A stretch of DNA of 64,000 bases from Amoebophrya sp. A120. Its lineage: Eukaryota; Protista; Dinoflagellata. Positions 28,664-55,526 of this stretch are shown here, in pieces (position 1 is the stretch's first letter; each line of letters starts with the position of its first letter). The position numbers and the translations under genes are program-made. Location of the stretch: assembly GCA_905178155.1 (NCBI GenBank), contig CAJINV010000009.1, forward strand, positions 124,001 through 188,000. The letters run 5' to 3'. Under the pieces are notes generated by a model. The model saw nothing but the letters and a program-made list of their open reading frames with translations, was not told the origin of the DNA and searched no databases.

Positions 28664-29075
28664 ATAAGTACGTTGTTGTCGAATCTTCGTTAGCGTTGCA
28701 TCTGTGCAAGCGTGTCTTACTGCTATGAGAAAAACGTATAGCATTTCTGCGTCCGTTCCAAATACGTTCCCATCAGCATGGACTGAAGATCAAAAGTGTC
28801 AACCTGAAAATCAAAATTGCTGAAGATCCAGAAATTTTCAAGATCCTCTTCGTAAAATTGGTTCATCATATGCTCCATGCCAATGTTCAAGGAATAGGTG
28901 AGACTGAGAACGAAGGAATAGGTGAGACTCAGACCGAATTGGCAATTCATTGCAACTTCAAATTGACCAGCGAGTTTTGATTCTGCTAAACGTCAAGGGA
29001 CCAAAGAAATTAACGTTTTCTATCTGTTCTTTATAGGCATCAAGCGACACTACACAAAAGAAGAGCTCAACGACC

Positions 29076-31296: not shown

Positions 31297-34200
31297 ATGT
31301 TCACGCTTGTCTTCGGCAAGAACGTTGACGTCCACTGGCTCAACGGTGGGTACTGCAAGTTTCTCTTCACTTACTTCCTGGTGCTGATTCTCGGCGTGAA
31401 GATCCAGTACTGGATATCCTGAGCAAAAACGTCCCCACCCCCGAGTTGTCATGCAGATTTGCAATGGCAGGAACATTTGTAATGCGCATCTTCATGAGAA
31501 GCGTTTCCAAATCCAATCGTGTTTTGCAATTTGTAATGCTGTAAACAGGATGAGAAAGTCATGCGGCTCTCCTTGCTAGCCAGCACTACACTGCAGATGG
31601 AAACTTGTCATGCAGAAGTCCCAAAACTTGGGAATTTGTGTTGCAGACCTCCCATCTTGACTATGGTGTGGGGACGTTTTTACATAGGATACTGGATCAA
31701 CCAGGAGCGATGGTTGGCCAGGCACAGCAACGACTACTACGTATCAAATGTAAAAATGTCTGGGTCTGGAAAGATGTAACTTGTGATGCGCATTTCAGAA
31801 CACACAAAAATCTCTGATGCATAGGCAGCCAAAGCTGCTCACTTTCTGTCACCAAAATGGAGGATTTGTCATGCGGATTCGGCATTGCGGAAGCTTCTCG
31901 AAACCTGTGATGCTAGAGCTTCCATGCCAGACCTTCGGTGTCATGCAGAAACAGCATCACTCTTCCAGACCCAGACATTTTTACATTTGATACTACGGGA
32001 ACACAGACTACTACTACACGCATTTGCTAGGTGGCTACTTGATGGAGGACAGAATGCGCTCAATAAGAGGCATGGTGGCGCCGGTGGCTTCTAACGGAAA
32101 TTTGACGGTTGTGCTAGAAGAGGAAGCGCAAGGAAATGCCTCGAACACTTCTGAAGCTGAGGTTACAGGGCTTTCAAGTTTTTCTCAAATAATGCGCAAG
32201 AAAGATGCTAACAGCAGCTGGCAAGTCCAGCAAGTGGGATTAAATGACGGCAAGCCGCTCCCCATGAAGCAGCACTACCACATGATCCGCTGGGACCTGT
32301 CGCAGGTTTTGCAGGAGGTGGTCGAGGCCATGCTGATGCACAACATCACGTCCAAGGCTTCCTTCGACGAGAAACTGGGGAAGATCCAGGAGGACCCGCA
32401 CACAAAGGCGTTATTTTGGGAGATGTTCGTCGGGAGTGTGGAGATCAAGTTGACAGAGATTCGGCCCAACGAGTACGGCTTTGTTTCGGAGGAGAAACAC
32501 GACCCGCTCTACCGGACCCCAGCGGACATCCGCCAGATCCAGCAGTACCAGCACTTTGCCGGCAACGTGACCCTGTACATCGCGGACCGACTCGCGGTGC
32601 ACGCGTTGCGCACCTACATCGACACCTATTTCAAGCCCTTCCACTCCCGGACCCAGAAGTACGCGGGCTACAAGGACGAGTACCTCTATTTTCCGGTAGA
32701 CGTGACCTTGAAGTCGGCACAGAATCTGTGGGGGCATCTGTCCTTCGTTGAAATTCTCGAAGTTTTGGGCAAGTTGCTCGAAGCGGAGAAGGAGGAGGAC
32801 AGGTTGGGAATTTTAGAAGGGTATGACGATGACCAAAATGCTGCTGGTGCTGTAACATGGATCACGAATAATGGGATTGGCAATGAAACGACTCCCACCC
32901 CCGGAAATAACGGGACAACTATCGGACCGAACGAAACCGGTACAACAAACGACGGCGTGGTACGCTTAAAGATCAACATCCCAGTTGGTGAGGAAAGCCA
33001 ACACTCCCAATCCTTTTTACAGCGCGACGTGAACGACAGTAACGAAACCACTGTAAAGAACGCCACGACAGCAGGTAACCAGACTGGAATTGGAAGAAAC
33101 GATTCCAATTCCACACATAAATCGTTGTCCGGAAGAGGAACCACGTTTGGGTCATGGGGAGATGTGAACTTGAAAGTGGAAGTTCCTGGGATAAAAATTG
33201 ACATGGACTTCTTTGGTGACATTACGAAATTGGACGTCGATGAGGTCCGCGAGAAGCTCGATCTGAACGCCTGGAAGGAGAAGCTGATCGCTCGGCACGG
33301 GCGGCTGAAGGCGTACGAGGACCCGTTTCTGAAGCTGCTCACAAGTGACTGGGTGCTGAAGAAATCGGTGAAGCTGGAGGCCAATCTACAGGAGCGCCAG
33401 AAGCTGCTTGGCCTGGAGTGGCTTGGCACAGCCCGGTTTTTTACGCACGAGCAATTGGCTTTGCTCCAGATGACGCAGGAGGTGTTCCAGGATGTTCTCC
33501 AGCTGCTGCGGCTGGACGTGCGCAGTCTCGCGGCGTGGCAGCAGTTTGTGCAAGATACCTCCACCAGGCACGGCTACGGCGACCACGTGTTACCCAACGG
33601 CCAGAGGCTGGGCAAAGTGCAGCTGCCCTCCGTGAGAGACCTGGAGCAGGTGAACCACGTACTGCGCGGCATGCTCAAGCTCATGAGCATCCCCGAGAAC
33701 CAGGATGCCATGGATGCCGAAGCAGAGGAGATTTTCGAAGATCTGGAAGCCGGGGACTTCGAGGGGGCAAAAGACCGCATGGTCAACGCGATGAATGAAG
33801 TTTTGGAGGAGGTCGAGCCCTTCACCATTCCCGGCTGGTTCAGTTTCAAGAACGGAGGGAGTGACGTCGCAGTTACCCCCTCCAAGGGCTCGGGCAAAGG
33901 AACGGGCGCAACCAAAGGCACGGGAAAAGGAACAGACAGCGACGTCTTGGACCCTTTCCTCCCTGAAAACAGCGACAACAGCACTGTAATCCCTCCGATT
34001 GTAGTGCTCGATGACGCCCTTTCGGAAGAGATTATCGACGACGTGCTGGGGAGCATCACGGGGGAAGTTGACGCAGAGAACATATTGCACGGTCAAGCCG
34101 ACAGCACAACGGAAGAGCCGCAAAACCAAATTCCTGTTACGCCGCTTGCCTCGACGGAAGCCCCGGACACGACGTCTGCTACGCCAACACCGGAAACTCC

Positions 34201-37200
34201 AGTGACGACAGAGGAGATTTCCGTTGAAAACGGATTGAAGGAGATCGGGGAGGGTTTGTTTCCGGCTGAAGACGAAAGCAAGGTCGAAGAGCTTCTGGAA
34301 GAGGGGCTGGCGACTATCGGGGACATGGGCATGATGGACAAACTGATGCTCGCCATGAAAGCCGATGAGTTTCTGAAGGCGGAAGACCCGGAGGAGAAGG
34401 CGCAACTGAAGCAAGACCTCGCCACGAGGCTAGACATTACGCCCGCCGAAGCGGACCTCTTGGCCGCCCACTTGCTCAAACACCACGAGGAAGGGACGTT
34501 GGTGGACCGGCTAAGGCCCTGGTTAGATGAGCAAGGGTTTGGACACTTGGTGAGTAGTTCAGCTTCGTCTTTCGTGTCGAAGAAAGTTGTAAATGCGATC
34601 GCAGGCGGCGTCGGAAGTGTCAGGACCACTCGAAGAAACATCAAAATCACGCCAGCAAAGACGCGCCAGTCTGACGTTCCAGATACGCACATGAAAGAAA
34701 AAGAATTTCGTACAACTTCCCGGCTTTTGAAGAAAGAAAAGCAAAGAAATTCAAAATCATTCTCTCCCGCAAGGACTTCCTTTTTGGAACATTTCGCGGA
34801 TCAGACAAGAGCTCACGAACTGTCTTCCGCGGCGGTATTTGAGAGGAAAACGAGTTTTTTGCGACGCGGACTCGCAATCACAATTGCAGGGAAAGAAGAG
34901 GTTTTGGGTGCAACGTCAGGGAGAAGAAGCTCTCTGCTGAGCCGTGGGACTACAGCATCAGATGACTCGTCGGACGCCGAAATAAAGGGCGATCAAGCTG
35001 CACAGGAGGGTGAGGAAAATGAAGATGGACATGACCACGACAAAAATGGAGATTCTGCCCACGACAGTGAAGACGGCATTTCCGCCCTGGAGCATGAACA
35101 ATCTCAGCAAACTGCGCACGAGGACCAGCACAGTGAAAACGGACCTGACGGAGATGATGACCATACCTCCTACGACCTGGACGAGATCCGGGACATCATC
35201 AAGAACCCGACGGACCGCATCGGGCAGAAGCAGGACGACGCGCTGCTGGACACGTTGCGCATCCTGAACGTGAAGCGCAACGTGGAGAAAGCGGCGCTGA
35301 AAGAGCCGGTGTTCAAGCAGTTCGACCGTTTTTTCCAGATGCTCAACCTCCGCCCGATGATCGATGCGGACCTTGAGGAGGCCTTCGAGGCTGAGGAGCA
35401 GGAGGAGGAGCGGAAAGCGAAGGAGGAACTTGAAGCGCTGCTGAAAGAGAACAAAACGGAAGGGGCGGGCCCGTCCTCCGCCTCCTGCTGCGGCGAAAAG
35501 GCAGAGGAGGAGGAGGAGAAAAAACCAGAACCGCTTAGCACCCTGATCCGGTACAACGTGCCCTGGGGAACCGGCACGGAGAGTCTCCAGCTCCTGCAAG
35601 CGTTCATCTTTTTGGTGGTGGAGGCGTTGACCATTTGGTTCACGTTTTTACTGCCCCTGTCCTTCCTGTACCGGTTGTTTGGGTCGTCGATCTTCGAGGA
35701 GCGCGAGAACAAAATGATGGAGATGCAGCTAATCTACGGCTTAGACAAATCGACCTACTGGCTGGCGAATCTGGTGTTCTTCTGGCTGATTCTGGGAACG
35801 CCCTTCCTCGTGGCGCACTGGCTAAACCTGAAGATGCTCAGCGACGTGCTCCCCGGGGAGCACTGGCAGCTGCCGCGCGGGGACACCAACGAGAAAATGT
35901 GGCACGAGCCGTATCCGCCGGCCTCGGAGTCGCTGATTTCCGTTTCGAGTAAAGCGATTTACCAAAAATTTGACAACCACGGATTGCGACGGCTGTTCGC
36001 GCCGGAGGAACTGAATTTCACCCCGTGGATTCCGATTTTCCCGCCGCTAGCGGCCTTACTCGCAGCGTCTACCCTCGCGATCAGTGTCGAAAAGCGGGAG
36101 AAATTCGAGTCCATCCTCGGCACGCTTTCCGGGTTGGGGAATCTGATGATCCTCGGGGCGTATGTGTTGATTGAGATCCTGTTCCCCACGAGGCTCTCCT
36201 TCTGGCCGACGGCGGTCGCCGGCGCGTTTGGCGTGTCCGAACCGAAGCAGGATGTGGTCTACGACCCGTCGTTATCAAATGCAAAAATGTCTGGGCCTGG
36301 AAGAGTTGGAACTTGTCATGCGAATTCTGGAATAGGCAAAAATTTGTATTGCATAAGCACCAAAAGCTTCCCATTTCTTTCTACGCAAATAGGGAATTTC
36401 TCATGCGTGATAGACATCAGGAGGCCTGCGCAAAACCTGTATTATGCTTTTGCGTGCATTAGAGACCAGTTGCGTGATCCAGAAGATGCATGACAAACTC
36501 CTGCAATCTTCCAGACCCAGACACTTTTGCATTTGATAGTCGCTCCCGCGGCCGCCGGAGCCGTGCAGCAGCGCGTACGACTGGCAAACCGTGAACCACA
36601 TTCTCTCCTTCGGGCTCGGGGTCACCGTCCCGGGCTACAGCTACCTCCGGATCGTCGAGCGGGGGCTGAACCTCATGCGCGCCACGGAGCTCGCGCGGCA
36701 CAAGGGGGCGGAGAGCGGCGAGAGCTCGCTGCTCGCGACCCCGAAGTACTGGAACATGGGGCTGCGGGGGCACAGTCTGTACAACTGTGCGCGGAACAAC
36801 GAGATGTCGCCACCAGAGTGGACGCAGCGGCAGAAGCCGATGCTGAACATTTTGAAACTGTCGAAACTCCCCTGGTATCAAATGCAAAAATGTCTGGGTC
36901 TGGAAGAATGCGCGATTTGTCATGCAGCTTTTCCATGACCATGAGGTCTGGAATGCAGGACCTAGCATGACAGATTCTGTGCGATCTCTCTCATGCCTAT
37001 CCTACATGACAAACTCCCTCACGACTTGGTCAAAACTGGACGACCTTTGGTAATCCTGCAACACAGATTTTTGCATGCTTGAGATTTAGCATGACAAGTT
37101 GCATTCTTCCAGACCCAGACATTTTTACAATCCATACCTGGGTCTGGGACGACGAAGCGAAGCTGGAGGAGTACGTGAACAACGCCGGCGCGACGGACTT

Positions 37201-40200
37201 GGCGCACCACCTCGGCCCGGAGTACTGGGTGCCGGTCACGCTGGAGTATCTCAGCTTGGTCTTGAACGTGCTGTTTTGGGGTTGCGCCCTGCTCTACGCG
37301 GAGAGAAGGCGACACAGGGCGGAGGCCGGTGATCACAGGGAAGCGGATGCTGAGACCGCGAAGAATGCTGTAAATGCAGCTCCAAACAAGGGTGGCATCC
37401 TGGATTCGCAGGGGAATCCCTCTATCGCACTCAAACTGGTCGAAATGACCAAGACGTTTGATAACGGGAGGAAGACGGCGAACGACAGGATTTCCTACGC
37501 TGTGAAGCGCGGGGAGATTTTCGGCTTGCTCGGCCACAACGGCGCGGGGAAAACGACCATGGTGTCGCAGATCTGCGGCCAGATCCCGGTCACGAGCGGG
37601 GACTGCTTCGTGACCGGACACAGCATCAAGACCTCGATCACGAAGGTCCGGCAGAACCTGGCGCTTTGCCCCCAAGCGAATCCGCTTTGGAACACGTACT
37701 CGATGCGACAACACTTACAGTATTTCGCCCGGTTACGGCAATTACCCGAGAAGGAACTGAACCAGACGATCGAAAAGTACGCGTTTCTGCTCGGTCTGGG
37801 CGAAAAGTTGGACACCAACTGCGAAAAGCTCTCCGGTGGCCAGAAGCGGCGGCTGTGGGTGCTTTGCTCTCTGCTAGGGTCAGCACCCGTTGTCATCATG
37901 GACGAGCCGACTTCTGGGATGGATCCGCAGGCGAGGCGGGATTTCTGGGTGTTGCTCAAGCGATTGGTCAAGGAGGAGCAGCGCGCGATCATTTTCAGCA
38001 CGCATTACCTGGAGGAAGCGGACTTGCTGGCGGATCGGAAGTTGATTCTCGCTGGCGGCAAGGTCGTCTGCATTGGCACGTCGCAGGAGCTGAAGCATAA
38101 CTTCGGCCAGGGCTTCTGGATCCACGCCATGGTGGACAAATCTGTGTGCCAGAACAATGTCGCCTTGGCAGAGAAGATTCTACACCAAGACTTGAAGCAG
38201 ATCGTGGAAAGGGAATTGTTCGCAAACGCGGAGAAGAATATGAAACAACCGGTCACGTCATCAGAGCAGATAGAACAACAAGGTACAACTCCAGGTGGAA
38301 ATAAAAATCGGGCAACAGCTGCCGCTTTCAATCGCGTGCGGACGAAGAACCCGAAGGTTTCCGACTACTTCCTCGCGTACAGCATTCCATGGGCGGAGGT
38401 GAAGGAAATGCCGCGCATTCTGGACGCACTGGCGAATTTTGCGGAGCAGAATTACCCACCCGGCTTGGTCGAGTTCACGGTGGAACAGACCACGTTGGAA
38501 GAAGTCTTCCGGAACGCGGGGGAGCTCGCGGACCGCGAGGAGGCGGAACGGCAAGAGAGGGTTCTGCAGGCGAAGGGCGGGAGCAGAAAAAAATTGAACC
38601 AAAATGCAAGAGTTTCCCTCGCCGCGATCGAGAACGAGAAAATGAAGGATTTGGTGGACAGCAATCCGAATGATATGCTGAAGCGCGTAACCGCACGAAC
38701 GGACCAGCTGGATCTGCATAATCCGATCGACGAAGACGGAACCACAACAAACGCAAACCGCCCACCGCTGATGCCGCGCAACTACTCCTTCTTTGCCCAG
38801 GTTCTCGCGATTTGGGAATTTCGATTTTACGGAGAATACCACCAGAGACTGCTCGGTGCGCAAATCGGCGGGGCGGTGTTTCTGATCGTGTGGGTCGTGC
38901 TCTGCATCCTGGTGAAGCTGAACGTCGACGACAAACTGGAGGAGTTCATGGAAGTGAAGGAGGAGGACAAGGAGAAAACGGAGATGAAAACTTCCACCCT
39001 TGCCACGGTCATGTCCGTCGGCCTCGGCGGCGTGATCGCCCCCCTAGCCTGGCAAATGTTCGGCGCAAGCGTCGTGAAGGACAGCTACCTGCCGGAAGAG
39101 GACCACGGGCTCGCCAAGCACCTGTACTTGCACGGCATCAGCAAGCCGGCTTACCACATTGCGTCCTGCCTCCACTGGTTGTGTTTTCTCACCCTACCCG
39201 GGTTCTTCTTCTTCACGCTGTCTTTGATCATTTACTTGAACCCGGTCTATGGGTTCAATGACAGTATGATCGGGACGCTGTGGCTCTCCTTCTTCTTCCT
39301 CGGCGTCATCCTCTCCCTCTTCCCCGCCATGCTGCTCACCTCCGGCATGGTTTCCCCGGGGGGCTGGACGATGTACGTGATCCTGAACTACGCCATGGGG
39401 TTCATCCCGACGATCATCGAGCGCGTGATGCAGACTGACTCCTGGGACATGAAGAAGGGAAACACGATCGACTGCTGGGTGCTCCCCACCGCGATGATTC
39501 AGGCGGGCGTCACCTCCACCGAGCAGATTTTCAACTTCGGCGCGCCGGTCTGGTGGCCGAAGGTTTGTTTGTACTTGATCTACATCGTGTTCCCGCCCAC
39601 CGCTTTGGCGGCGAACCTGAAGGGGCTATGGAAACTGCACGCACTGGACCGGATCACGGGCAAAAAAGCCGAGCATTTCTCCGTCTGGTACTACCTCACC
39701 GGCGATGTGGAGGAGCTACCCGCGGATTTGCGCATCTCGTTCGCGGACTCCGGTCTGCCGGACAACTGCAACTCGAACTACTTCCAGGTCACGAGCAGAT
39801 ACGAGGTGCTGGCGCCGCTGTGGAGCCTGGTGTTTTACATCATTGTCGGCATTCTCTACTACAAGGTCTACCTCCCGTACTTTGGGAAGGACGCCTACCG
39901 CACGGAGCAGCAGCTGTTGCGCGACCCGGTCATCGGACTGAAGCTCGCGGAGATCCTGCACAAGAAGTTGAAGGTGCGCGTATTGAGAGGAAAAATCCCC
40001 CCTCCCCATATTAAAAAGGTATGTTTCCAAAAATTTGTGTTGCGGATTTGAGGTCACAAATCCGATCTGTCTTGTAAGAAGACAAGGGCAGAAGCTTCCG
40101 CCCCATTATGGAAGCGACTTCTCATGCTGTCTGGCCTAAAGGGGGGCCGTTTGCCATGCTGAACCACTAGACCCATACGCCCCTACCTAGCCTGGGGATC

Positions 40201-43200
40201 TCGCCGCAGTGCCTCTGTGCAATACAAAGCTGATTTGTGGCCACAAATCAGCATAACAAGTCTCCGTTTTGATATGGGGAGGGGGGATTTTTCATTTTGA
40301 TAGCGCGACACCAAAACGGGGGAGGTGGTCCGGCTGGAAAAGCTCGGCGACGATAACGACGGGGACGTGAATATCCTGAGTAAAAACGTACCCACACCAG
40401 ACTTGTAATGCAGATTTGCAAAGACAGGAAGACTTGTAATGCGCATCCCCATGAGAGCCATTTCCAATCGTGTTTTGGAATTTGTGATGCTGTGAACAGG
40501 ATGAGCAGCTGGATTTGTGACGCGGCTGCACTTGCTAACCTGCACTACACTGCAGAGTGCAACTTGTCATGCGTGACTCACAAAGCTCCTAGGTTTGTGT
40601 TGCAAAATCCCCATCCTGACTCTGGTGTGGGTAGGTTTTTACTCAGGATAGTGAATGCGAATCGCGACCCGGACGTCGTGCGAGAGGAGCAGAAACCGGA
40701 CCGGGCCGCGGAGAGCTACGCGCTGGACGCCGTTAAATTGGTGAAGCACTTCCCGCCCAGCAGCAAGGCGCTGCAGGACAGCCATAACGAGCACCACGGA
40801 ACCGCGACGGAGAACAAGTACACGGCACTGCAGCTGCAGCAGATGAACACGAAGTGGGCCACGAAAAACGTGACGTTCGGTGTCTACGAGGGGGAGTGCT
40901 TCGGCCTGCTCGGGCCCAACGGCGCGGGAAAAACAACGTTGTTTAACCTGTTATCTGGCACGGAGATGGTGGATGTCGGGAGGATTTCGATTTACGGACA
41001 AGACTGTGTGAACACGAAGGAAGCGAGCTACACGGTGGGTTCCTTCCCGCAGGCCGCGCGGGAAAAGATGGGCCTGGCGCTATCAAATGTAAAAATGTCT
41101 GGGTCTGGAAACTTGTGATGCTAAAAGTGAACGAGAGTTCCACTGCAATACGGAGCCAAGCATGACAAATTTTTTGGGCTCCTATGTGTTGCGTGTCCCG
41201 CATGGCAAACTGCGTGTTTGCATGACAGAAAAGAGGACCGCTTCGTGCCCATGCATCACAGATTCTTGAGTCATGTCAGACACGCATGACAAATGCAGGA
41301 ATCTTCCAGACCCAGACATTTTTACATTTGATAGGCGCCGCAGTTCGACAAACTGTGGCCGCACGTGAGCGGGAGAGCGCATTTGCGCCTCTTCTCGAAG
41401 TATGGATTGTAAAAATGTCTGGGTCTGGAAGAATGCAACTTGTCATGCTGTTTTTGGATTCTAAAAAAATTAGTGTTGCGTGACCAGCAAGAAAGGTCCA
41501 GTCTGTGCTACGCGGAGAGGGCATTTCTCATGCGGAAGGCGCATCAGGAAGCCCTCTAAAATTCTGTGATGCTAGGTCATGCATTACAGGCATGAGGGGT
41601 CATGAAAAATATGCATGACAAGTCTTGCACTCTTCCAGACCCAGACATTTTTACATTTGATACGAAGTGCTGCGGCACCTACATGCGCGAGGGCGAGTTG
41701 GATCCCGAAGCCGGGGAGAAGAGGATTAGCACGTTTCTATCCTGAGTAAAAACGTACCCACACCAGAGTCAGGATGGGGATTTTGCAACACAAGCCTAGG
41801 AGTTTTGTGAGTCACGCATGACAAGTTGCACTCTGCAGTGTAGTGCAGGTTAGCAAGTGCAGCCGCATCACAGATTCGTCTGCTCATCCTGTTCACAGCA
41901 TCACAAATTCCAAAACACGACTGGAAATGGCTCTCATGGGGATGCGCATTACAAGTCTTCCTGTCTTTGCAAATCTGCATTACAACTCTGGCGTGGGTAC
42001 GTTTTTACTCAGGATAGTTTCTCAAGCAGGTCAGCCTATCCGAGATCGACGCCGACCGGAAAACCGAAGAGTACAGCGGTGGCATGAAGCGCAAGCTGTC
42101 TGTATCAACTGTAAAAATGTCTGGGTCTGGAAGAGTCATGCTGTTTCTGCATGACACAGAAGGTCTGTCATGGAAGCTCTAGCATCACAGGTTTCGAGAA
42201 GCTTTTGCTACCGATGCATGAGAGATTTTTGTGTGTTCTGAAATGCGCATCACAGGTTACATCCTTCCAGACCCAGACATTTTTACACTTCATAGTCTGT
42301 GGCGCTCACGTTGATCACGGAGCCGAAGCTGGTCTTTTTGGACGAAATGAGTGCAGGTATTGAACACAAATAAAGTTGCGTTTTCTACATACTGACATTT
42401 TTTCGCTATGCTGGTCTGTCACTGCCATACTCAGATGTAGCGGTCAATAGAAGCGGTTATTTCTTGTTTCTGGTACCAGGCTTACTTATGCTTCCGCACC
42501 ACTACTTTCAGAAGATTAGAATGTCAAGAAAAAGAATTATCTTTCTCTCCCCACTTCAGGCGTGGACATCGTTGCCCAGCAGTCTTTGTGGCGGAAGTTG
42601 ATCAACCGGCCCAAGGGGCAGACGATCATTACGACCACACACAGCATGATGGAAGCGGACGCGACGTCGGATCGCATCGGTATTCTGGTCGGGGGCAAGT
42701 TGAAGTGCCTCGGGTCCACGCACCGCATTAAGTCGCAGTACGGTAACGGCTACCAGCTGGAGCTTCTCGTGCGGTGGAAAAAGGGTTTCACGACCCCCGC
42801 CGGCGCGGGGATGGCAAAGGTAAGCACGAGCAGCCCGCTGGTGCGACGCACGGCAAGCATTTTCGCGCTGACCGCGCCGGAAACCAAAACTGCGTCCGTT
42901 TGGGAAGATGACGATCAGCCGCTCCTGGAGGTCTCGGACGAGGAGCGACGCAGCAAAATGAGTGTGGAAAAGGAGGAGCAGGAGAAAGAGATTTTGAAGG
43001 AGCTGCAGGCGGCCATGGAGGAGGAAGATAACAGCCCCGCCACACCAACTACGCCAGATCCCGCGATGAACGTGATGCCTTTCGTCCAGAGCATTCAAAA
43101 AGCGGGAAACATCGATAGTTTCCGGCTGGAAGAGAACGGACGTCGCAGCCAGGCAGGCATCAATGAAACTGCGCCTCTGGCGGGTGTCAATGAGACCATC

Positions 43201-43998
43201 GCTCCTGGGAGCGATAACTTTAGTATCGCAGGAGACTACGATCAACAAAATATTGCAGAGGTCGAAAGAAGGCGGGAGGACATTTTAGCGTCGTCGACCG
43301 TTGGCTCACAAGCAGGAGGAGCCCCAGTGAGAGGTAGTGCGGCGACCCAGGATGATTCGATTGATATCATTCCGAGTAGTCAAACGACGAGTCTGCCTTC
43401 TGGTGCGGAAATACCGCAGATACAAATTATTCACGGGGCACAACCTGAGGGAGAGGCGGATGAGGATGCTATTTCCGCTGGAGCAGAGTCGGACGCCGTA
43501 AGCAGTCTAGCCGTGAGCAACGAGATACTCTCGTCTGCCCCACCACCACCACCTGGTGCGCCAGCCGCTGTTGCGGCCGAAATCGTGGTCGCAGCAGCAG
43601 CTCCAAGAAGAACTACTGTCGCAAGAATCGAGCCGGCAACGGCGGACATCCTGGACGAGCGGATATTGATGCAATCTCTGATGCAGCATACTCCCCTGGA
43701 AGCGGAAGACATCTCCTTGAGTGAGAAAATGCTTTTCCAGACCGCGAATGCGGAGGGGGCGACGGAAACAGGGGCGCTGCCGGACGAGACGCAGAAATCG
43801 TTCCGCGTGCGGGTGATCTTCAACCTAAAGAAGAAACCGGGACTGATGTCCGCCGTGTTTCGGTGGTGCATGGACGACCCGCTGCAGATCATCGAAGACT
43901 ACGGCTTCGGTGAGCCAACACTGGAGCAGGTCTTCTTGAAATTCGCAAAGGAACAGGAAACCATCGAAGAGGATAAGGGCGCTTCAACAGAGACCTGA
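31297..43998 (+). CDS. Full-size ABCA-subfamily transporter (paralog 1), 12 exons, ~3,268 aa, interrupted by 10 TIR introners and one GT-AG intron (42357-42559)
   Basis: Exons 31297-31414, 31697-31741, 31998-36271, 36543-36875, 37142-39980, 40308-40371, 40656-41080, 41339-41400, 41668-41737, 42022-42102, 42300-42356 and 42560-43998 sum to 9,807 nt in frame. NBD1 has GHNGAGKTT, LSGGQKRRL, DEPTSGMD and THYLEEA. NBD2 has GPNGAGKTT, YSGGMKRKL and DEMSAGVD. C-terminal PTLEQVF. Colinear with the neighbouring paralog. Confidence 0.92.
31415..31691. mobile_element. Introner/MITE family B, 277 bp, TSD CTGGA
   Basis: Ends TATCCTGAGCAAAAACGTCCCCAC and GTGGGGACGTTTTTACATAGGATA. CTGGA at 31410-31414 and 31692-31696. 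Removal gives IQYW-INQE. Confidence 0.93.
31742..31992. mobile_element. Introner/MITE family A, 251 bp, TSD CTACG
   Basis: TIR TATCAAATGTAAAAATGTCTGGGTCTGGAA / TTCCAGACCCAGACATTTTTACATTTGATA. CTACG on both sides. Removal gives NDYY-GNTD. Confidence 0.95.
36273..36538. mobile_element. Introner/MITE family A, 266 bp, imperfect TSD GTCGT/GTCGC
   Basis: TATCAAATGCAAAAATGTCTGGGCCTGGAAG ... CTTCCAGACCCAGACACTTTTGCATTTGATA. Removal gives YDPS-LPRPPEPC in frame. Confidence 0.93.
36876..37136. mobile_element. Introner/MITE family A, 261 bp, TSD CCTGG
   Basis: TATCAAATGCAAAAATGTCTGGGTCTGGAAG ... CTTCCAGACCCAGACATTTTTACAATCCATA. Removal gives KLPW-VWDDEAK (paralog: RLAWSYEDGDK). Confidence 0.95.
39981..40302. 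mobile_element. Introner/MITE family C, 322 bp, TSD GCGCG
   Basis: TATTGAGAGGAAAAATCCCCCCTCCCCATAT ... ATATGGGGAGGGGGGATTTTTCATTTTGATA. GCGCG on both sides. Removal gives KVR-DTKTG. Confidence 0.93.
40372..40650. mobile_element. Introner/MITE family B, 279 bp, TSD GTGAA
   Basis: TATCCTGAGTAAAAACGTACCCACACCAGA ... TCTGGTGTGGGTAGGTTTTTACTCAGGATA. Removal gives GDV-NANRDPDV. Confidence 0.95.
41081..41333. mobile_element. Introner/MITE family A, 253 bp, TSD GGCGC
   Basis: Perfect 30-bp TIR TATCAAATGTAAAAATGTCTGGGTCTGGAA. Removal restores the Q-loop MGLA-PQFDKLW. Confidence 0.96.
41401..41662. mobile_element. Introner/MITE family A, 262 bp, TSD CGAAG
   Basis: TATGGATTGTAAAAATGTCTGGGTCTGGAAG ... 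CTTCCAGACCCAGACATTTTTACATTTGATA. Removal gives LFSK-CCGTY (paralog: LYAKCSGTY). Confidence 0.95.
41738..42016. mobile_element. Introner/MITE family B, 279 bp, TSD GTTTC, inverted relative to 40372-40650
   Basis: TATCCTGAGTAAAAACGTACCCACACCAGAGT ... ACTCTGGCGTGGGTACGTTTTTACTCAGGATA. Removal gives ISTF-LKQV. Confidence 0.96.
42103..42294. mobile_element. Introner/MITE family A, 192 bp, TSD GTCTG; shorter, inverted relative of 31742-31992
   Basis: TATCAACTGTAAAAATGTCTGGGTCTGGAAG ... CTTCCAGACCCAGACATTTTTACACTTCATA. Removal restores YSGGMKRKLS-VALTL. Confidence 0.95.
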
Positions 43999-45282
43999 TG
44001 AATTCGCTCAACCCTCACTCGATCGACATCAGTTTCTGGATACAACTATTTTGCGTTTCTATTTCTAATTGAATTCATCTATGTACTTACTTACTACTAC
44101 AGCACTTTTGGCCCAATTTGAATTTTCAAGGAGCGGCAGGGTTTGCTGTCTCTTTATCTTACATCACCCAGACCCAGACCCACCATCACCAATTATGGAC
44201 TTCCACTTTATTCTCATACTGACTCCTGTCGGACTTACATCACAGAAACAGACATTCTTTCTATCTTCCTTCTTCGTCTTGTTTCTAAAGTACGTCTGAC
44301 GAAGAACAGCAAGCATGCATAGCAGCCGTTAGTTTAGCTTCCCCAGAAATTTTCTACATTTGGACACACGCATCTGTGCATTTTTCTCCCCTTCTGCCCG
44401 CGGCCAGTAGTATCCCCACAGAAGTTTTTCATTTTGTCATCTATGTATCTTTCCAAGAGAAGAAAAAATATTGCCGTCGACCATGGGATGTTCATATTTT
44501 GCTTCGCTTGTTGTTGTTCATCTGCGGGCTTGAGCGCGTCGCTTTGATTCATTTATTGCAGGCTCCAGGAAGAATGTGAATGCAAAAAGCCACAATCACC
44601 CGCATGTTTCGTATTGTGATTATGCATCCGAATCTTCGTCCGCTCCTGATGCAGTGAGGAAAAAATAACGGCGCTCTAACATTTTCGTGCATAGTCTGGC
44701 GATCGTTCTTCTTTAGTGTCGTGTCAAATTTCAGTTGTGATACATCTTGGATCGTTCGTATTCTTCGTCTTCGTGCGTCCTTCGACGGTATCGCAAGTAC
44801 AGCTCCTGTTTCTGTTTCACAATGTCAGGATCTCTTGAGGCCCTTTCGTTACACTTACATTGGCAGGATGAAGTAGCATTCCTAGAAGTGAAACCCATAT
44901 TTTTACCCCATTTGAATTACGAAAAAAAATCCACCCGCTATGTAAATTCACTATAGCTGCATCTCGACGATGAATATTGTGAGTCGGTGTCTGCCCTCAA
45001 TAACTACAATAAAATTTTACAGGAGACAGAGTCACGAGAGCCCGTACATGGGTGACTAGTACCTAAGTACACTTCCTTGTTAGTTATGATGTTTCGTACC
45101 TTGTGTTACTATGCAATTTGACAATAGAGCTCGTTTCGCCACGGCGTAGATCCTACTCCAATATTATCCCACAGAGCTAGTTCTTGATTTGACAAGGCCT
45201 CCCTTTTATTGTTCCTTCATGCGAGAAGTCATCAAACCTTAAATCCTCCTTCATCCGTTGCTTTTGTTCAGGTCCGCCCAGC

Positions 45283-48200
45283 ATGTTGGCGGGTTTTGGC
45301 GTCGTTTGGGAGAAGAATATGCAGGTGTATTGGCGAAACGGGGGCTACTGCCAGTATCTGGTCACCTACGTGATTGTCTTATGCCTGGGTATCCGTCACC
45401 AGCTGTACTGGAACGCGGAGGAGTTGCGCGCGGACCACTTTACAGCGTACCACGAGACGCTCACCCTCCCGAACACGACCCTGGCGGAGCTGAAAGAAAA
45501 CGCCACCGTGGTGGACACCGTGCGCAAGTGGATTGTTCGTGAGCTCGCGTACGGTCTGGTTCACAACAACGCGGACAGCCAGCAGGAGGCGATGACGCTC
45601 TTGCACGGCGTGTTGCAGCATCCCCACGTGGCGAACTCGGAGCTCGTGTCCGTGCAAAGGGGCGGCCCCGAACCGGAGCTGTTCCGCCACGCTGTGAGCG
45701 GCCTGGTGTCCAACATCACCGCAAAGGTGCTGCGGCAGGAAGCAAGCATTTCCATCGTGGACTTCGTGCGCGAAACCAATCCAGCGTTGCTGCTGCGGGC
45801 GTTTCCCGATCCGCATCTTCTGCAGAACAGCCTGATGCCGATCGAAGAACAAACGGAATACGCACGAAGGCTTGTTTCGGGGGGCCACTTGGGGGGTGGG
45901 ACTGGAAAGATCTTGGGCAAGAAATCTTCTGAGGAGAATGCTGAGATGAAAAGCGCGAGGACGTTTGCGGAGAAACTGTCGGACGAGCACGATTTGATCG
46001 GTTTGTTGGAGAAGATACTCGCCTCAACCGAGCCGCCGGGCGACCTGTCGCGAGTCGTGGACTGGAAGTTTTTGGCCGGGGAAAGCGTGTACGCGGACTA
46101 CGTACGGGACACGCTGAACGTCACCGCCGAGCTTGTCCGCGCATTCTACGGGGAGGACCTGGACAGCGCGAATTATAACGAAGGAGAAGGCGAGGGCCCT
46201 GTTCCAGCCGCCCCTTCCACGCTAACCAAGGAGGATCTGCGGCAGCTGGGAAGCCTGAGCACGGCACTGTTTTTGGCCAATCTAGTGGTGCCAGCCAGTC
46301 GTTTTATTGCGCTCGCGCAGACCAGAAACATGTTTGTTGAAAGCGGCCTTTCACTGTCAGCCGCGGAGGGAGCAGAGAGCGAGACCAACCTCCAGTTGCT
46401 CCACAGCCTGGGGATGCTCATCACCTCGCTGAGAACCGAGAAGCTCGATGTGAAGAAAGATGCAGAGACTAAGAAACCTGAAAAGGCGGGGCTTCAGAAC
46501 GTGGACGGGGAGGAAGCTCCTGCTCCCTGGGGAAACGATCATCCCTGGTGGGTTTTGCAGCTGTTTTCCATGCGACCACGAGCTGCCGCACTCCAGGAGA
46601 AGCTCGGAAACCTAAAGCAGGGCGGCGGCGCTGCCAATGCCACAGTAGGGGTAGTAAATGCCACGGAAATTCCTACACCGACTCTTCAGAGTGAGCTACG
46701 GCAGTCGGTCGAAGCAATTTTGACGATGGAGTTTTTTGCGAACGCACTCGCGTCGAGCGACGTGTCGGCAGTCGAGCTGGGTAAGAGACTGGCCAGCTCA
46801 CGGGAAAGGGCCGCTGAGGTGGCTGTGAAGGAGGCCACTGATCTGAAGAATTCTACCTACTACGATATGCCTTTGGCGCCCATGCTGCTGGATGCGGAGC
46901 ACAGTAAAGAAAGTCAAAAGGTTGGCCCAGCACCAAACTCGTTATACATGTACGAGAAAAATAAGCAGGAACTTCTGAATCCGGGCGGGCGCTTCGGTCC
47001 CGGGGGGGCCGAGGACTTTCAGGATCAGGACCCGAAGAAGAGGGTGGCTAGATTTTGGAAATTCGGGGGCGCAGACCCCTCCGCTGGAGCACTAAAGGAC
47101 CGAACAGATGATCCGGAACAAGCAAAATCCCCCGTAGAGGAAATAGCTAGATTCTTGCCGCGCGACAGATCGAAAGATCGGCGGTTGGCGGAAAAGGGAA
47201 GCGGAAAGGGGCAGCAAGACCACAAAGGCATAGATATGGAAAAGAGGCTGGAGAGGAGGGCCCGACGTGCCCCGCCAGGGAAGGATTTTTTACAATCTCG
47301 CGTTTCGTTTCTGCAGAAGTCGCATCTGCGTCGACGCGCGAGTCCAGCAGCTACGCTTGACGGGAAGTCGAGGGACGCTGGTTTTTCAAAAATCAAAGCT
47401 CCTCGACGTCCAACGACGCTGCTGCAACGCGGACTTCGCCGTGAGGGTGTAACTACTCTGGCCGCGTCTCCACTCAGACCGAAACCGCAGCACACCATGT
47501 TGTCCGAAGACATTCGTCCGGGAGGAGGAGAGTTGAAGACAGAAGGACGAGGCGTCGGTACAACGGGAGAAAGCTCGGCGTGCGCGGATCCAAGTTCCGG
47601 CATCAGACGAAGCGTGAACAACAATGCCAGGGGCACGAACTCCTACGGCAGCCACGCTGGCGGTGATTCCCTCATGGATAAGTCGTCGCGATTTTTGTTT
47701 ACCGCAGAGGGCGATGAAGCAGGTACAGCCGCGAAGATCCACTTCACATCTACATCTTTCGCCGAAGCAGAGGAAGAAGATTCGCAAGAGCAAGATGATG
47801 TCGTGTATAAAAATGCACGTCCCCTTCGGAAAGAAGAGGACACGGCAACATCAACCTTCCTGGCGACTTCATCCAGCAGAGCGACCAAAAATGATCCCCA
47901 TGTTGACGCAGAAAGCCAGAGAGTACAGCTGCCCGACGGGACTGTGGAGCCAGGGAAGAATGAAGGGAAAAGTATCGCACCAGCGCCAACTTCCACACTG
48001 CCCCCGGAGCCAGCCGCACCACAACCGCCTGCTCCGCAGGAGGCCTTGGCACTCGTGTCCCGTCAGACGGAGCGGAACCTTTTGGATTCCATGCGCGCCG
48101 AAATTTTGTCAACATTTGACACGGACGGGGCGCTACTGAACGCCCTGGACGCGGAGCTGACGGACGCCCCGTCCGATCTCGATGTGAAGACCACGGGCGG

Positions 48201-51200
48201 GTGGCCCGACGCCATGGGAAGCATGCGGCTGTTGCTCGGATATCAAAGTGAAAAAAGCCCCCACCCCATATCGGAAACGGAAGATGCGCGAATTTGTGAT
48301 GCTGTATTTGAGTACACAAATCAACTTGTATTGCTAGAAGGCCGAGAGACGAAGCTGCGGCCTAAATTGCAGGTAATCTGTCATGCTGTTTCCCACTTCC
48401 AGTTGCCTCTTGTCATCCTGGAGCTGCAAGGCTTTCCCACGCTAGACAGCGCTACAGTCTGCATCTTTTGCCTTCTAGCATCACAAAGCTGATTTGTGAC
48501 CACAAATCTGCATCACAGATTTCCGTTTTGATATGGGGAGAGGGCATTTTTCATGGTAATATCGGATTCATCCTGTTCATCCTCGAAGCCGTGGTGGCCT
48601 GGTTCACGTTTCTACTACCGTTGTCTTTCCTCTACCGCTTGTACGGACTGGCGATTTTTGCGGAGAAGGAAAGCGAGCTGATGGACATGCAGCTGATTTA
48701 CGGCATGCGGAAGCGCACGTACTGGGTGGCAAACATCCTCTTCTTTTTCGTTGTCCTCGGCACCCCGTTCATGATCACGCACTGGGTGAACCTGGCTCTG
48801 GTCGCACAGATTATCCCCCTCGACCGCCTGTGGCCGTCGAACTTCCTGTTTTACGTCTTCGCGCCCATGTGCCCACCGCTGGCGGTGTTGCTGGCGGTGT
48901 CCGCCTTGGCCATGCGTGTGCGAAATTCCGAGAAGTTCGAGAGCGCGGTGACCACGATCAGTTCGCTCGGGAATTTGCTGGTCTTGGGCGTCTACATTCT
49001 CTGGGAGGTCCTCCTGCCGACGCGCATTTCCTTCTGGGCGACTGCGATCCGGGGCGCGCTGACCACCCACGGGCTCGCGGCCACGGAGGAGGTCCCCTTG
49101 GCATCCATGTGTCCCGACGTCAGCGCGGGCGCGTGGAACGTGGTGCTGTCGACGATCTTCGGCGTTGCCGTTCCCGGCTACGCCTACATGCGGCTGAACA
49201 TGCGGGGCTGGCAAATGAAGGGCGTGCTGCAGCTGATGCGGCATCGGGGCAGCGAGATGGGTTGGTACTCGCTGGAACCCTTGGCGCCGGCCTGGAACCA
49301 GGGCCTCCGCGGCCACAGTTTGTACTACTGCGCGCGCGACAACTTTCCCTCCCCGCCACCGGACACCGTCCGCAGCCAGCCCGCGCTGGATCTGACCGGG
49401 CTGTCCCGTCTCGCGTGGTCCTACGAGGACGGCGACAAGATCGAGCAGTACGCCAACCAGGCGGGCGCCGCGGAGCTGAGCCGCACGCTTCCGTTTGCGG
49501 ACTACGATCTGATCATCCTGCTGGACCTGCTCGCGGTCTTTCTCAACGTGGGCTTCTGGATTCTGGTGGTGTACCGGATCGAAAGGTACCAGAAGCAGGC
49601 CACTTCCGGGGACGTGCTTACGGTCGAGGAGACCTTTCGCGAAGCGGGACTCGCGACGGACGCGCCGCCCAAGGTAAAAATGGTGCTTGCGAGTTCCGAT
49701 TCTTCGGACTCGGATTGGGATTCAGTGCGAGCAAAGTATCGCCAGTCGGTCGCCGGGCCGAGCGGAGCAGACAGAGCTTCTGCGAGATTGTCGTTGTTGA
49801 AAAGGCAAAGCCTACAACAACGGGGAAGCAAAGAACCTGCTTTCGAGCCGCCTGATCGTCCTGAAGAACAAGCCAATTTGCAGCCCGCGGGGGCGAAGAA
49901 GGGGAAGCATGTTGCGCCGTCCGTCCCGGCGCGCGGACACAAAGTGCCGATCGTTCTGCAGGTGAAGAAGGTTACGAAGACGTTTTTGCAAGGCGAGAAG
50001 GTCGTGAACAACGACGTGAGTTTCGAGATCAAGCGCGGCGAGATTTTCGGGCTGCTGGGGCACAACGGGGCGGGAAAAACCACTTTGCTGAACATGATCA
50101 GTGGCAAGGTCCCGGTGACGTTCGGAAAGATCGTGATCATGGGACGAACCAACAGCGCGGCAGAGATCCGCAAGAACAATTTGATCACACTCTGTCCGCA
50201 GGGGAATCCCTTGTGGGACAATTTCACCGTGGACCAGCACGTGCGGTTCTTTGCCCGGTTGCGCAACGTGGACGACGTGGAGGCCTCGGTCCGCAAGTAC
50301 GCGTCGCTTTTAGGGTTGAGCCAGCACTTTGACACGCACTGCAAGTACCTGTCCGGCGGGCAGAAGCGGCGGCTGTGGGTGCTGTGCTGTCTGCTCGGGT
50401 CCGCGCCGGTGGTGCTGATGGACGAGCCCACGACGGGCATGGATCCGCAGGCGCGCCGAGATTTTTGGATTTTGCTCAAGAAGATCGTGAAGGAGGAGAA
50501 GCGGTCCGTCATCTTCACCACACACTACCTCGAGGAGGCGGACCTGCTTGCGGAGCGGAAGTGCATCTTGGCGCACGGCAAGATCCGTGCGATTGGCACG
50601 TCGCAGCAGCTGAAGCGGCAACTCGGCAGCGGGTTCTGGATTCACGCGATGATCGAAAAGCGGGAGGACGCGAACCCAGACCTGGTAAGGAACGCACTAA
50701 GATCCCTCGCGCCCATCATCGAACGTGTTCTGTACCCGAAAGGCATCACATTTTCCTCTAGGCCAGTGACATCAACTGCCGCCAGGAGTCCTCCTTCGAT
50801 GGGCACTGCAGCACTTCTGGACCGAGGCGCAGATTCCATGGACACGGACAGCGAGAGAAGCGAAAAGAAAAAACGGAAGAAAAACAAAGAGCCACTTCCG
50901 CTGGCTGAGTTGGACGACGGGTCGCGGACTATGATTGGCAAGATCGTGACGAAAAATCCTCGCAACAGCCGGCACTTCTTGGCCTTTCTCATCCCTTGGG
51001 AAAAGATCCCGCAAATGGCGGCCGTGCTGGAGGCCCTGCAGAAGCGCCGGGGGGAGATGCTCGAACGGGGATGGACAGTGATCCCCACCAGTTTGTTGTC
51101 CGGATTGCACGGTGAACTCGCCGACCCCGTGAGGGTGGACTTCACCATCGCACAGACCACGCTGGAGGAAGTGTTTCACACGGCGGGCGAGGTGGCAGAC

Positions 51201-54200: not shown

Positions 54201-55526
54201 TCGGAGTTGTCGAGACCTGCAGTGGGTGGATCAGAGGAAAGAGTACCGGCTTCGCAGGAGAACGCAACAAACGTCGCAGCGCGGGTGGTGGTTCCCGAAG
54301 GAGAGACAGATGCACTAGAACCGGAACAAGGAACTGAACAACATCACAACCCGCTGGGAAGTCGTGATATGATTGAAGAGCAGGCTCTACCTCACGCGGC
54401 GGAAGAAGAAAGGCCACCATCAACCACGCACAGTGTTTCTCCTGTTGATGTTCCGCCGAACGGTCTCTCAGGTACGACGAGCCACATCGCGGTCCACGCA
54501 AATAAACCAGGCGCGGTTGGTAGCCCGGGAACTTCTACACGTGCCGGTTACCATCATAGTGGTAGCAACGTCACAAAGATGTCAACGGAGATGATTGAGC
54601 AGCTGACTTCCAATGTTGAGGAGGTGGAAACGTTTGTGATCGATTCTTTGCTGTCGTGGAAAAGTAGACGAGATGGGGGAGGAGAAATCGAACGCGGCAA
54701 GACTGTCGAGCAGACGAAGAAACAAGTACAACATCGCAGGAGCAGAAGTACAACATCGAGCGGAAGTTCAACATCGCAGGAACAGACGCCGGTAAGCGAG
54801 ATTGGATTGATTCGCGAGGACATCCAGGTGCTGGAAAAAATGCTGTTTTCGCATCACCGAGTGCGACTGATTCTCTCGCTTAACCCGCCGAGGATCCAGA
54901 AAAGGTCTCTGAAGAAACAAACGAGCAAAACAACGTCTCCAAAAAACGCATTGAGAGTGCCAGGAAATAAACAAGCAAAACAGGGTCAACCAGTAGCGCC
55001 ATCATTTACCCTGAATTACAAGGCAAGGCTCAAAGGAAATCAACAAGAAAGAGTTCCAGCTACTGCACCGGAAGGCGAAGCTGATCCTCCAGATGCGGAA
55101 AATGCCGTCAGTATCGACATCGATGGAGGTCGAGATGATGCGGAGGCGACTGGAGATGACGGGACTATCAAGGATCTAACGGCACAAGAGTTCGAGAAAT
55201 ACGGCTTAGCGGAGGCGTTGCTCCTTTCCGAGGAAGACAACGAGTTTAAAGAGGTCACCACTCAAGTGCAGGGTGCGAGAAGAGGATCGCTGGCCGCGAA
55301 ATTTATGCAGAAGGACAAGAAGAGGCTGTTGCGGCAAGTGAACCTGGCGGGAGTGTTTCGGTGGTGTGCGGAGGATCCATTGAATATTATTGAAGACTAC
55401 TCCTTCGGTGAACCAACGCTGGAGCAAGTCTTTCTCAAATTCGCCAAACAGCAGGAAAAGGACGATGCCAGCGGAAGGAGGGACCGCGCGGAGGCGAAAT
55501 TCCGTGGAAGCACTGATTCGTTGTAG
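45283..55526 (+). CDS. Full-size ABCA-subfamily transporter (paralog 2), two exons (45283-48240 and 48567-55526), ~3,305 aa
   Basis: Two TMD-NBD halves with GHNGAGKTT, LSGGQKRRL, DEPTTGMD and GPNGAGKTT, YSGGMKRRL, DEMSAGVD; C-terminal PTLEQVF. The N-terminus (KN..V.W.NGGYC..L.TY) is shared with paralog 1. Confidence 0.93.
48241..48561. mobile_element. Introner/MITE family C, 321 bp, TSD TCGGA
   Basis: TATCAAAGTGAAAAAAGCCCCCACCCCATATC ... GATATGGGGAGAGGGCATTTTTCATGGTAATA. The subterminal sequence is shared with 39981-40302. Removal gives MRLLLG-FILFILEA (paralog: LQLLQAFIFLVVEA). Confidence 0.93.

What the first reader, a model, noticed from the sequence alone, without database searches (positions are those of the whole stretch)
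31415..48561. MITE-like TAT...ATA introners with 5-bp TSDs that must be excised precisely from intact ABCA genes
Seen in sequence: 11 insertions of 192-322 bp in three TIR families (A TATCAAATGTAAAAATGTCTGGGTCTGGAA, B TATCCTGAGTAAAAACGTACCCACACC, C TATCAAA.TGAAAAA.CCCCC.CCCCATAT). All sit in coding sequence and all are flanked by a 5-bp duplication. Removing the element plus one duplicate restores a stop-free ~3,268-aa ABCA with intact Walker, signature and Q-loop motifs that is colinear with its paralog, so the gene does not look decayed. Established: introner elements with inverted and direct repeats are reported in Amoebophrya genomes, but to my knowledge the excision machinery and the mobilising transposase are unresolved. 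Inference: these are non-autonomous DNA transposons made harmless by a dedicated precise-removal system that recognises the paired ends.
Basis: partly seen in the sequence, partly recalled or inferred. Interest (0 to 1): 0.92.

Follow-up and report, generated by a model that had tools for sequence, protein, structure and literature searches.

The report
Known hairpin transposon introns, cut exactly
Eleven small transposon-like inserts interrupt two transporter genes of the marine parasite Amoebophrya, and those covered by RNA data are missing from the transcript to the exact base despite lacking normal splice signals; this class of intron is already published, and the enzyme that cuts it out, likely guided by the inserts' own ends, is still unknown.

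Summary
Real, but already published. The 11 elements are present as described (10 perfect 5-bp repeats, one 4/5). They match the introner elements of Amoebophrya A120 (Farhat 2021: TAT, 7 nt, AAA ends). The public A120 protein for this gene is the same 3,268 aa apart from one residue. Contigs of two probable RNA runs (one sample) lack six elements plus exactly 5 nt each, while DNA contigs keep them. A second assembly gave 234 short copies: 195 with a perfect 5-bp repeat, none with 4, 6 or 7. There, removal of element+5 restores conserved RPB1 motifs. Added here: near-identical copies are removed in either orientation; a GT..AG pair one base outside the ends is ignored; and one architecture plus aligner sliding reproduces the published 'diverse' splice-site spectrum (r 0.97/0.99). 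Best reading: non-autonomous DNA transposons, probably of an integrase-type (IS3EU/GingerRoot-like) transposase, spliced at fixed offsets from their ends. No transposase was found and the cutting machine is untested. Earlier scan notes saw similar hairpin introns in other dinoflagellates.

The parts
31297..43998 (+). ABCA transporter gene, paralog 1 (3,268 aa after removing 10 elements +5 nt and one GT-AG intron)
   Evidence: public A120 protein P0001 same length, one residue different; two ABC_tran domains
31415..31691 (.). family B element, 277 bp, perfect 5-bp repeat
   Evidence: removal shown only by public model and paralog alignment
31742..31992 (.). family A element, 251 bp, perfect repeat
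36273..36538 (.). family A element, 266 bp, repeat mismatched at position 5; natural marker of the cut register
   Evidence: public protein keeps the right-hand copy's base (Leu1480)
36876..37136 (.). family A element, 261 bp
   Evidence: X3 contig piece starts at 37137
39981..40302 (.). family C element, 322 bp; offers GT..AG one base outside each end, which the RNA contigs do not use
40372..40650 (.). family B element, 279 bp; 96% identical to 41738-42016 in opposite orientation
41081..41333 (.). family A element, 253 bp, in the Q-loop region of NBD2; only element with a canonical (GC..AG) register
41401..41662 (.). family A element, 262 bp
   Evidence: (summed length)
41738..42016 (.). family B element, 279 bp
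   Evidence: (summed length)
42103..42294 (.). family A element, 192 bp, internally deleted relative of 31742 in opposite orientation, just after the ABC signature
   Evidence: (summed length)
42357..42559 (+). ordinary GT-AG intron, 203 bp
   Evidence: absent from X3/X4 contigs, present in X1 contig
45283..55526 (+). ABCA transporter gene, paralog 2 (3,305 aa after removing one element +5 nt)
   Evidence: public P0011 identical over its 3,121 aa
48241..48561 (.). family C element, 321 bp, perfect repeat, in paralog 2
   Evidence: X3 and X4 pieces start at 48562

Best explanation
These are the published Amoebophrya A120 introner elements: short inserts with inverted ends and a 5-bp flanking repeat that stay in the DNA and are missing from RNA contigs together with exactly 5 flanking bases, likely spread by an integrase-type transposase and likely cut out by a modified spliceosome that measures from the element's ends. 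Shown: anatomy, uniform 5-bp duplication without target consensus, element+5 removal at six sites, removal in either orientation, no need for GT/AG. Inferred: (a) cut-and-paste insertion by an unseen DDE transposase of the integrase-related kind that leaves TA..TA ends; (b) both RNA cuts lie at fixed offsets outside the ends, k bases before and 5-k after, with k at least 1 from one indirect marker, so any target is restored; (c) the signal is the symmetric end (terminal motif, A/U run and roughly 30-bp stem); (d) the catalyst is the U2/U5/U6 spliceosome working without the usual U1 step. Odds: identity 0.95, end-measured removal 0.8, spliceosome as catalyst about 0.55.
For: Farhat 2021 describes A120 inverted repeats as TAT, seven variable bases, at least three A, with 3-5 nt direct repeats; all 11 fit. 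P0001 is 3,268 aa and differs from my splice at 1 of 3,268 positions. X4 contig gaps of 64 and 272 nt and X3's 761 nt equal +5 removal and not +0, +2 or +8. X1 DNA contigs run from exon into element with 0 differences at unique depth 42-49. Second assembly: 195 of 234 short copies have a perfect 5-bp repeat, 0 at 4, 6, 7 or 9, 1 at 8; target composition is near background. A canonical register exists in 12 of 151 oriented copies, 10.7 expected. 40372 and 41738 are 96% identical in opposite orientation, and both are removed; both orientations occur for all six reference types (88 assigned of 140 oriented). In RPB1 of locus L048, +5 matches homolog spacing in 44 of 44, 37 of 38 and 28 of 28 scorable homologs and, by eye, at a fourth site; one of the four elements is 972 bp. 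IS3EU/GingerRoot transposons have TA..TA ends; A120 fam38 is labelled Ginger, 5-bp TSD, TA/TA. 83 of 89 spliceosomal proteins and U2, U4, U5, U6 were found in A120, U1 snRNA was not.
Against: Nothing here tests the catalyst. With cuts inside the repeats both terminal intron bases are free, and a 30-bp stem would hide donor and branch signals, which is hard for a spliceosome. U1 may only be undetected: a U1-70K homologue is reported in A25. AG in the 3' window is mildly enriched (91 of 151 vs 74.7, p 0.009, one of 8 tests), so junction sequence may matter a little. The outermost stem pair is poorly predicted (0.01, 0.18, 0.47) in 3 of 11 elements. No transposase was found in 50 of 159 long ORFs of the fetched loci or 17 window ORFs, and Farhat reports none in A120. 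IS3EU/GingerRoot usually give 6-bp, not 5-bp, duplications. RNA support is one sample, labelled RNA by guess, contigs only, and may be the data behind the public model. Three elements (31415, 31742, 36273) have no direct RNA junction here.
Confidence: 0.55

Rival explanations
1. Same elements and same exact removal, but by a non-spliceosomal structure-specific endonuclease plus ligase that cuts at fixed distances from the stem, as proposed for euglenid nonconventional introns.
For: Indifference to terminal dinucleotides, orientation and length; an available GT..AG at 39981 is not used; strong predicted inner stems in all 11; euglenid introns with inverted ends need pairing and are excised as circles.
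Against: No candidate enzyme seen. Fritillaria removes MITE-derived non-canonical introns with its U2 spliceosome (second-hand). Mild AG excess at the 3' side.
Confidence: 0.35
2. The joined form is a reverse-transcriptase template switch across a hairpin between two short repeats, and the interrupted genes are dead.
For: A 30-bp stem with flanking repeats is the known recipe for such false introns (recalled); RNA evidence here is cDNA-derived contigs only.
Against: Every element has stops in three frames, yet NBD motifs are intact. RPB1 in the second assembly carries four coding insertions and keeps its motifs (single-copy status not tested). The joined contigs run unbranched over six or more junctions at depth 13-20.
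Confidence: 0.04
3. The elements are excised from DNA, like ciliate internal eliminated sequences, in the transcribing stage.
For: Transposon-like ends and exact restoration of one repeat suit a transposase-derived DNA excision.
Against: X1 DNA contigs cross the junctions unbranched at single-copy depth; element-bearing pieces of other loci occur in the RNA contigs (loose ends). Contigs drop rare variants and the life stage of X1 is not known.
Confidence: 0.03
4. Ordinary spliceosomal introns using GT/GC..AG made by the repeat (element+2, one codon added).
For: 39981 and 42103 offer GT..AG one base outside; +2 keeps the frame.
Against: RNA lengths reject +2; +2 breaks homolog spacing; 10 of 11 have no canonical register at +5; canonical registers are at chance level.
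Confidence: 0.02

Closest known systems
Introner elements (IEs) of Amoebophrya sp. A120 (Farhat et al. 2021, PMC7789003; Gozashti et al. 2025, PMC12130899)
   Same: TAT-N7-AAA inverted ends, 3-5 nt direct repeats, about 250 nt, non-canonical RNA-supported introns; this gene's public model already removes them; listed families of 278 bp/30-bp TIR (fam9) and about 321 bp (fam68) resemble B and C by size only.
   Different: Nothing in kind. Added here: strict 5-bp repeat across at least five families, orientation independence, unused GT..AG, and a one-rule account of the splice-site spectrum.
Euglenid nonconventional introns (Nomura et al. 2025, PMC12501133; review PMC11282704)
   Same: Inverted ends, direct repeats, no GT-AG, suspected MITE origin, spacing from the paired motif to the cut matters.
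   Different: Euglena uses a CDG/CHG motif and a purine after the cut, tested by knock-in; no circle, lariat or mutant data exist here.
IS3EU/GingerRoot DNA transposons (PMC10045372, PMC6839031) and Ginger2/TDD (PMC2836005)
   Same: TA..TA ends and no target consensus (IS3EU/GingerRoot); 5-bp duplication (TDD-4/5).
   Different: IS3EU/GingerRoot mostly 6-bp duplication and 100-150 bp TIRs (GingerRoot); Ginger ends TGTNR; no transposase seen for these elements.
MITE-derived introners of Micromonas/Aureococcus and Fritillaria (via PMC11282704 and PMC7789003; primary papers not read)
   Same: Transposon copies made harmless by splicing.
   Different: Those carry or co-opt fixed splice dinucleotides; these need none.

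Membership tests
Amoebophrya A120 introner elements | Inverted ends starting TAT, 7 variable bases, 3 or more A | tested here: met
   11 of 11 against the definition
Amoebophrya A120 introner elements | 3-5 nt direct repeat at the borders | tested here: met
   5 bp; 10 of 11 perfect, 1 with 4 of 5
Amoebophrya A120 introner elements | Removed from RNA with non-canonical borders | tested here: met
Amoebophrya A120 introner elements | Repeated families, in strain A120 | tested here: met
MITE (non-autonomous TIR DNA transposon) | Short, non-coding, TIRs, constant TSD, many copies | tested here: met
MITE (non-autonomous TIR DNA transposon) | Cognate autonomous element or empty-site polymorphism | tested here: inconclusive
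   none in fetched loci; no whole genome held; paralogs lack the inserts
IS3EU/GingerRoot | TA..TA termini | tested here: met
IS3EU/GingerRoot | TSD usually 6 bp | tested here: not met
   5 bp in 195 of 234, 6 bp in 0; so 'like', not filed as member
IS3EU/GingerRoot | Integrase-related DDE transposase in that clade | not testable with these tools
   no coding copy obtained
Ginger1/Ginger2 | TGTNR termini | tested here: not met
   ends are TAT
Canonical U2 intron | GT/GC..AG borders | tested here: not met
   1 of 11 has such a register; 12 of 151 vs 10.7 expected
Canonical U2 intron | Lariat and branch point | not testable with these tools
   no raw reads of this strain were laid
Euglenid-type nonconventional intron | Paired ends required; excised as full-length circle | not testable with these tools
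   stem predicted only

The most novel reading that the evidence does not exclude
A120 has one non-spliceosomal RNA 'ruler' that removes any TAT-ended hairpin plus exactly five flanking bases, blind to orientation, length and junction sequence, matched to the 5-base stagger of an undescribed IS3EU/GingerRoot-like transposase; the unprecedented splice-motif diversity reported for this genome is mostly aligner sliding inside the 5-bp repeat.
Probability: 0.3. Interest if true: 0.85.

Novelty: already known. Interest (0 to 1): 0.35.

Why it matters
How Amoebophrya removes tens of thousands of introns without GT-AG is an open question, and an exact, sequence-blind RNA excision system would be new biochemistry. 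The elements themselves are not new. What this work offers is a sharper target: one architecture instead of many motifs, orientation-reversed twin copies, repeats that offer an unused GT..AG, and mismatched repeats that can map the true cut sites from existing RNA-seq.

Tried and rejected
No whole genome is held, so copy number and a genome-wide transposase search were not possible; depths over the elements are not copy numbers. No run holding the stretch is on record as RNA; X3/X4 were judged RNA because they lack the GT-AG intron. X8 raw RNA reads gave no exon coverage: no evidence either way. Junction reads for 31415, 31742 and 36273 were not obtained. The A-type end had 0 matches in viral contigs; Rfam gave 0 matches over 31300-48700. 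Five long end-pairs (498-1,148 bp) with 0-1 repeat mismatches had no ORF above 149 aa; one is two tandem elements; they were not scanned against Pfam. An apparent skew of repeat mismatches to positions 1-2 (12, 9, 4, 3, 2) vanished in transcript orientation (4, 2, 2, 4, 4) and was dropped. An apparent synonymous/non-synonymous gradient did not hold with better frame calls (13 synonymous of 21, no trend). A G/C target preference seen in the window's 11 was not seen in 195 copies. A second register marker (L059) found no homolog. No A120-named RPB1 was among 44 hits, so the relation of the second assembly to A120 is not established. dN/dS was not estimated: no close orthologous DNA. No folds or complex jobs were run; there was no candidate protein.
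Full report
Observation. Motif and generic scans place 11 elements at 31415-31691, 31742-31992, 36273-36538, 36876-37136, 39981-40302, 40372-40650, 41081-41333, 41401-41662, 41738-42016, 42103-42294 and 48241-48561. A relaxed scan finds no others in the window. Arms match at 23-30 of 30 bases; all have stops in three frames; 10 of 11 have a perfect 5-bp flanking repeat and 36273 has 4 of 5. Removing element+5 and one GT-AG intron gives 3,268 aa for paralog 1 and 3,305 aa for paralog 2, but +2 and +8 are also open, so the frame alone does not prove the length.

Identity. A search with one unbroken exon returned a 3,268-aa protein named Amoebophrya sp. A120 by its sources. It differs from my splice at one position, Leu for Phe at 1480. 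Farhat et al. 2021 (PMC7789003; abstract, sections 11, 12, 25 whole, passages of others, supplement legends and table starts; figures not seen) define A120 introner ends as TAT, seven variable bases, three or more A, with 3-5 nt repeats; they count 29,850 copies, find no transposase in A120 and no U1 snRNA. The finding is therefore a set of published elements in a gene whose public model already removes them.

RNA versus DNA. Four of ten listed runs were laid. X3 and X4 are one sample, RNA by guess; they lack the ordinary intron, which the DNA-like X1 keeps. An X4 contig leaves 64 and 272 letters between its pieces and an X3 contig 761. These equal +5 removal at six elements and reject a uniform +0, +2 or +8. 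Piece ends fix +5 singly for 39981, 40372 and 41081; 41401, 41738 and 42103 are fixed as a sum, backed by ungapped motifs in ten homologs. Pieces starting at 37137 and 48562 fit removal of two more. 31415, 31742 and 36273 rest on the public model. X1 contigs run from exon into element with no differences at depth 42-49, against assembly error and against common DNA excision; X1 may be the window's own source, and contigs drop rare forms.

A larger sample. Of 265 end pairs, 31 over 400 bp were set aside as mostly mis-paired. Of the other 234, 195 have a perfect 5-bp repeat, 30 one mismatch, 9 more; none is perfect at 4, 6, 7 or 9 bp. TAT and AAA are fixed by the search, so their conservation is not a result. 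Target composition is near background. With relaxed rules 300 elements were found, 0 in one shuffle; 172 could be given strand and frame; among 151 perfect ones a GT/GC..AG register exists in 12 (10.7 expected); AG somewhere on the 3' side in 91 (74.7 expected, p 0.009, one of 8 tests), and 60 have none. RPB1 in L048 holds four coding elements and +5 alone gives the homolog spacing.

Constraints on mechanism. (1) Orientation does not matter: 40372 and 41738 are 96% identical and reversed, 31742 and 42103 91-96% and reversed; both orientations occur for all six reference types. The signal must be in the symmetric ends. (2) At 39981 a GT..AG pair one base outside would give an in-frame product, yet the contigs show +5; 42103 is a second such case by sum and model. 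(3) Length from 192 to 972 bp is tolerated. (4) The public model keeps the right-hand base at the one mismatched repeat; since models came from transcript alignments, the 5' cut probably lies at least one base outside the end. This is one site and indirect. (5) Inner stems are predicted in all 11, the outermost pair weakly in 3. These facts fit cuts at fixed offsets from the ends. They do not separate pairing from sequence recognition, nor spliceosome from endonuclease-ligase.

The published motif diversity. Gozashti et al. 2025 (PMC12130899; passages, supplement legends, all 58 A120 rows of one table) give full dinucleotide counts for fam2 (9,716 introns): 69% NT at the 5' end and 68% AN at the 3' end. 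A model with TAT..ATA ends, a random 5-bp repeat, exact removal and an aligner sliding to the best per-base match to GT..AG or CT..AC reproduces this (r 0.973 and 0.987; distance 0.093, against 0.16-0.47 for eight alternatives). Caveats: the sliding rule is recalled from BLAT, which Farhat used; the test is post hoc, on one family, and fam2 sequences were not seen. Farhat's own figure legend says the border positions remain unknown, so this quantifies a flagged ambiguity. Five searches and a term search in Farhat showed no treatment of element orientation or of this sliding; most subscription papers, including Roy et al. 2023, were not searchable or read.

Mobiliser. No transposase domain was found in 50 of 159 ORFs of 200 aa or more in the loci, or in 17 window ORFs. 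TA..TA ends mark IS3EU/GingerRoot, usually with 6-bp duplications (PMC10045372 section 10 and passages, PMC6839031 passages); Ginger ends are TGTNR and TDD-4/5 give 5 bp (PMC2836005 passages). A120 fam38 is labelled Ginger with 5-bp TSD and TA/TA ends, though its authors say in the text that it lacks Ginger ends and homology. An integrase-type transposase is the best lead, not a result.

Comparison. Works like euglenid nonconventional introns (PMC12501133 abstract, discussion, passages; PMC11282704 passages). Another Amoebophrya has canonical introns and U1 (PMC12005148 passages). A U1-70K homologue is reported in A25 (PMC12787238 passage). Earlier scan notes describe similar hairpin introns in other dinoflagellates (unchecked); none by sequence or in this genome.

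Verdict. Real, functional and already known; interest 0.35 for the still-open splicing mechanism and the sharper tests this locus offers.

Noticed in passing
window 39981-42294: Six of the 11 elements sit within 2.3 kb and ten in paralog 1, against one in paralog 2 and none in the rest of the window; two near-identical pairs lie in opposite orientation, which may mean local hopping.
   Followed up: partly
window 45283-45834: The public model of paralog 2 (P0011) starts 184 aa later than the open frame, whose start aligns with the start of paralog 1 (24 of 53 identical); the model is probably truncated.
   Followed up: partly
inside the elements: A short motif TTGT.ATGC recurs inside families A, B and C, often inverted near both ends (9 of 11 elements); possible subterminal transposase site.
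   Followed up: no
L048 1256-6777: RPB1 of the second assembly carries four elements in coding sequence, one 972 bp long, and one more in probable intron.
   Followed up: yes
loci L001-L142: Further families of about 150 bp and 210 bp share the TAT-N7-AAA end and the 5-bp repeat.
   Followed up: partly
L043 4329-4608: A perfect family B copy has an 8-bp repeat instead of 5; removing element+5 would leave 3 extra bases, a natural test of a fixed ruler.
   Followed up: no
window 37058-37129, run X8: About 122 raw RNA reads match part of a family A element at 90-95% with foreign flanks while the exons have no coverage: a related element retained in another organism's RNA.
   Followed up: no
loci: Insertion phase is uneven (57, 40, 75 of 172), unexplained; may reflect base composition or frame-calling bias.
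   Followed up: no
window 29037-30647: Transcribed gene with HEAT/PBS repeats, probably deoxyhypusine hydroxylase (name recalled, not tested).
   Followed up: partly
window 59400-61000: Kinase gene resembling GSK3 with ordinary GT-AG introns (read by eye, name recalled).
   Followed up: no
window 199-28506: Fifteen + strand ORFs scanned have no Pfam match.
   Followed up: partly
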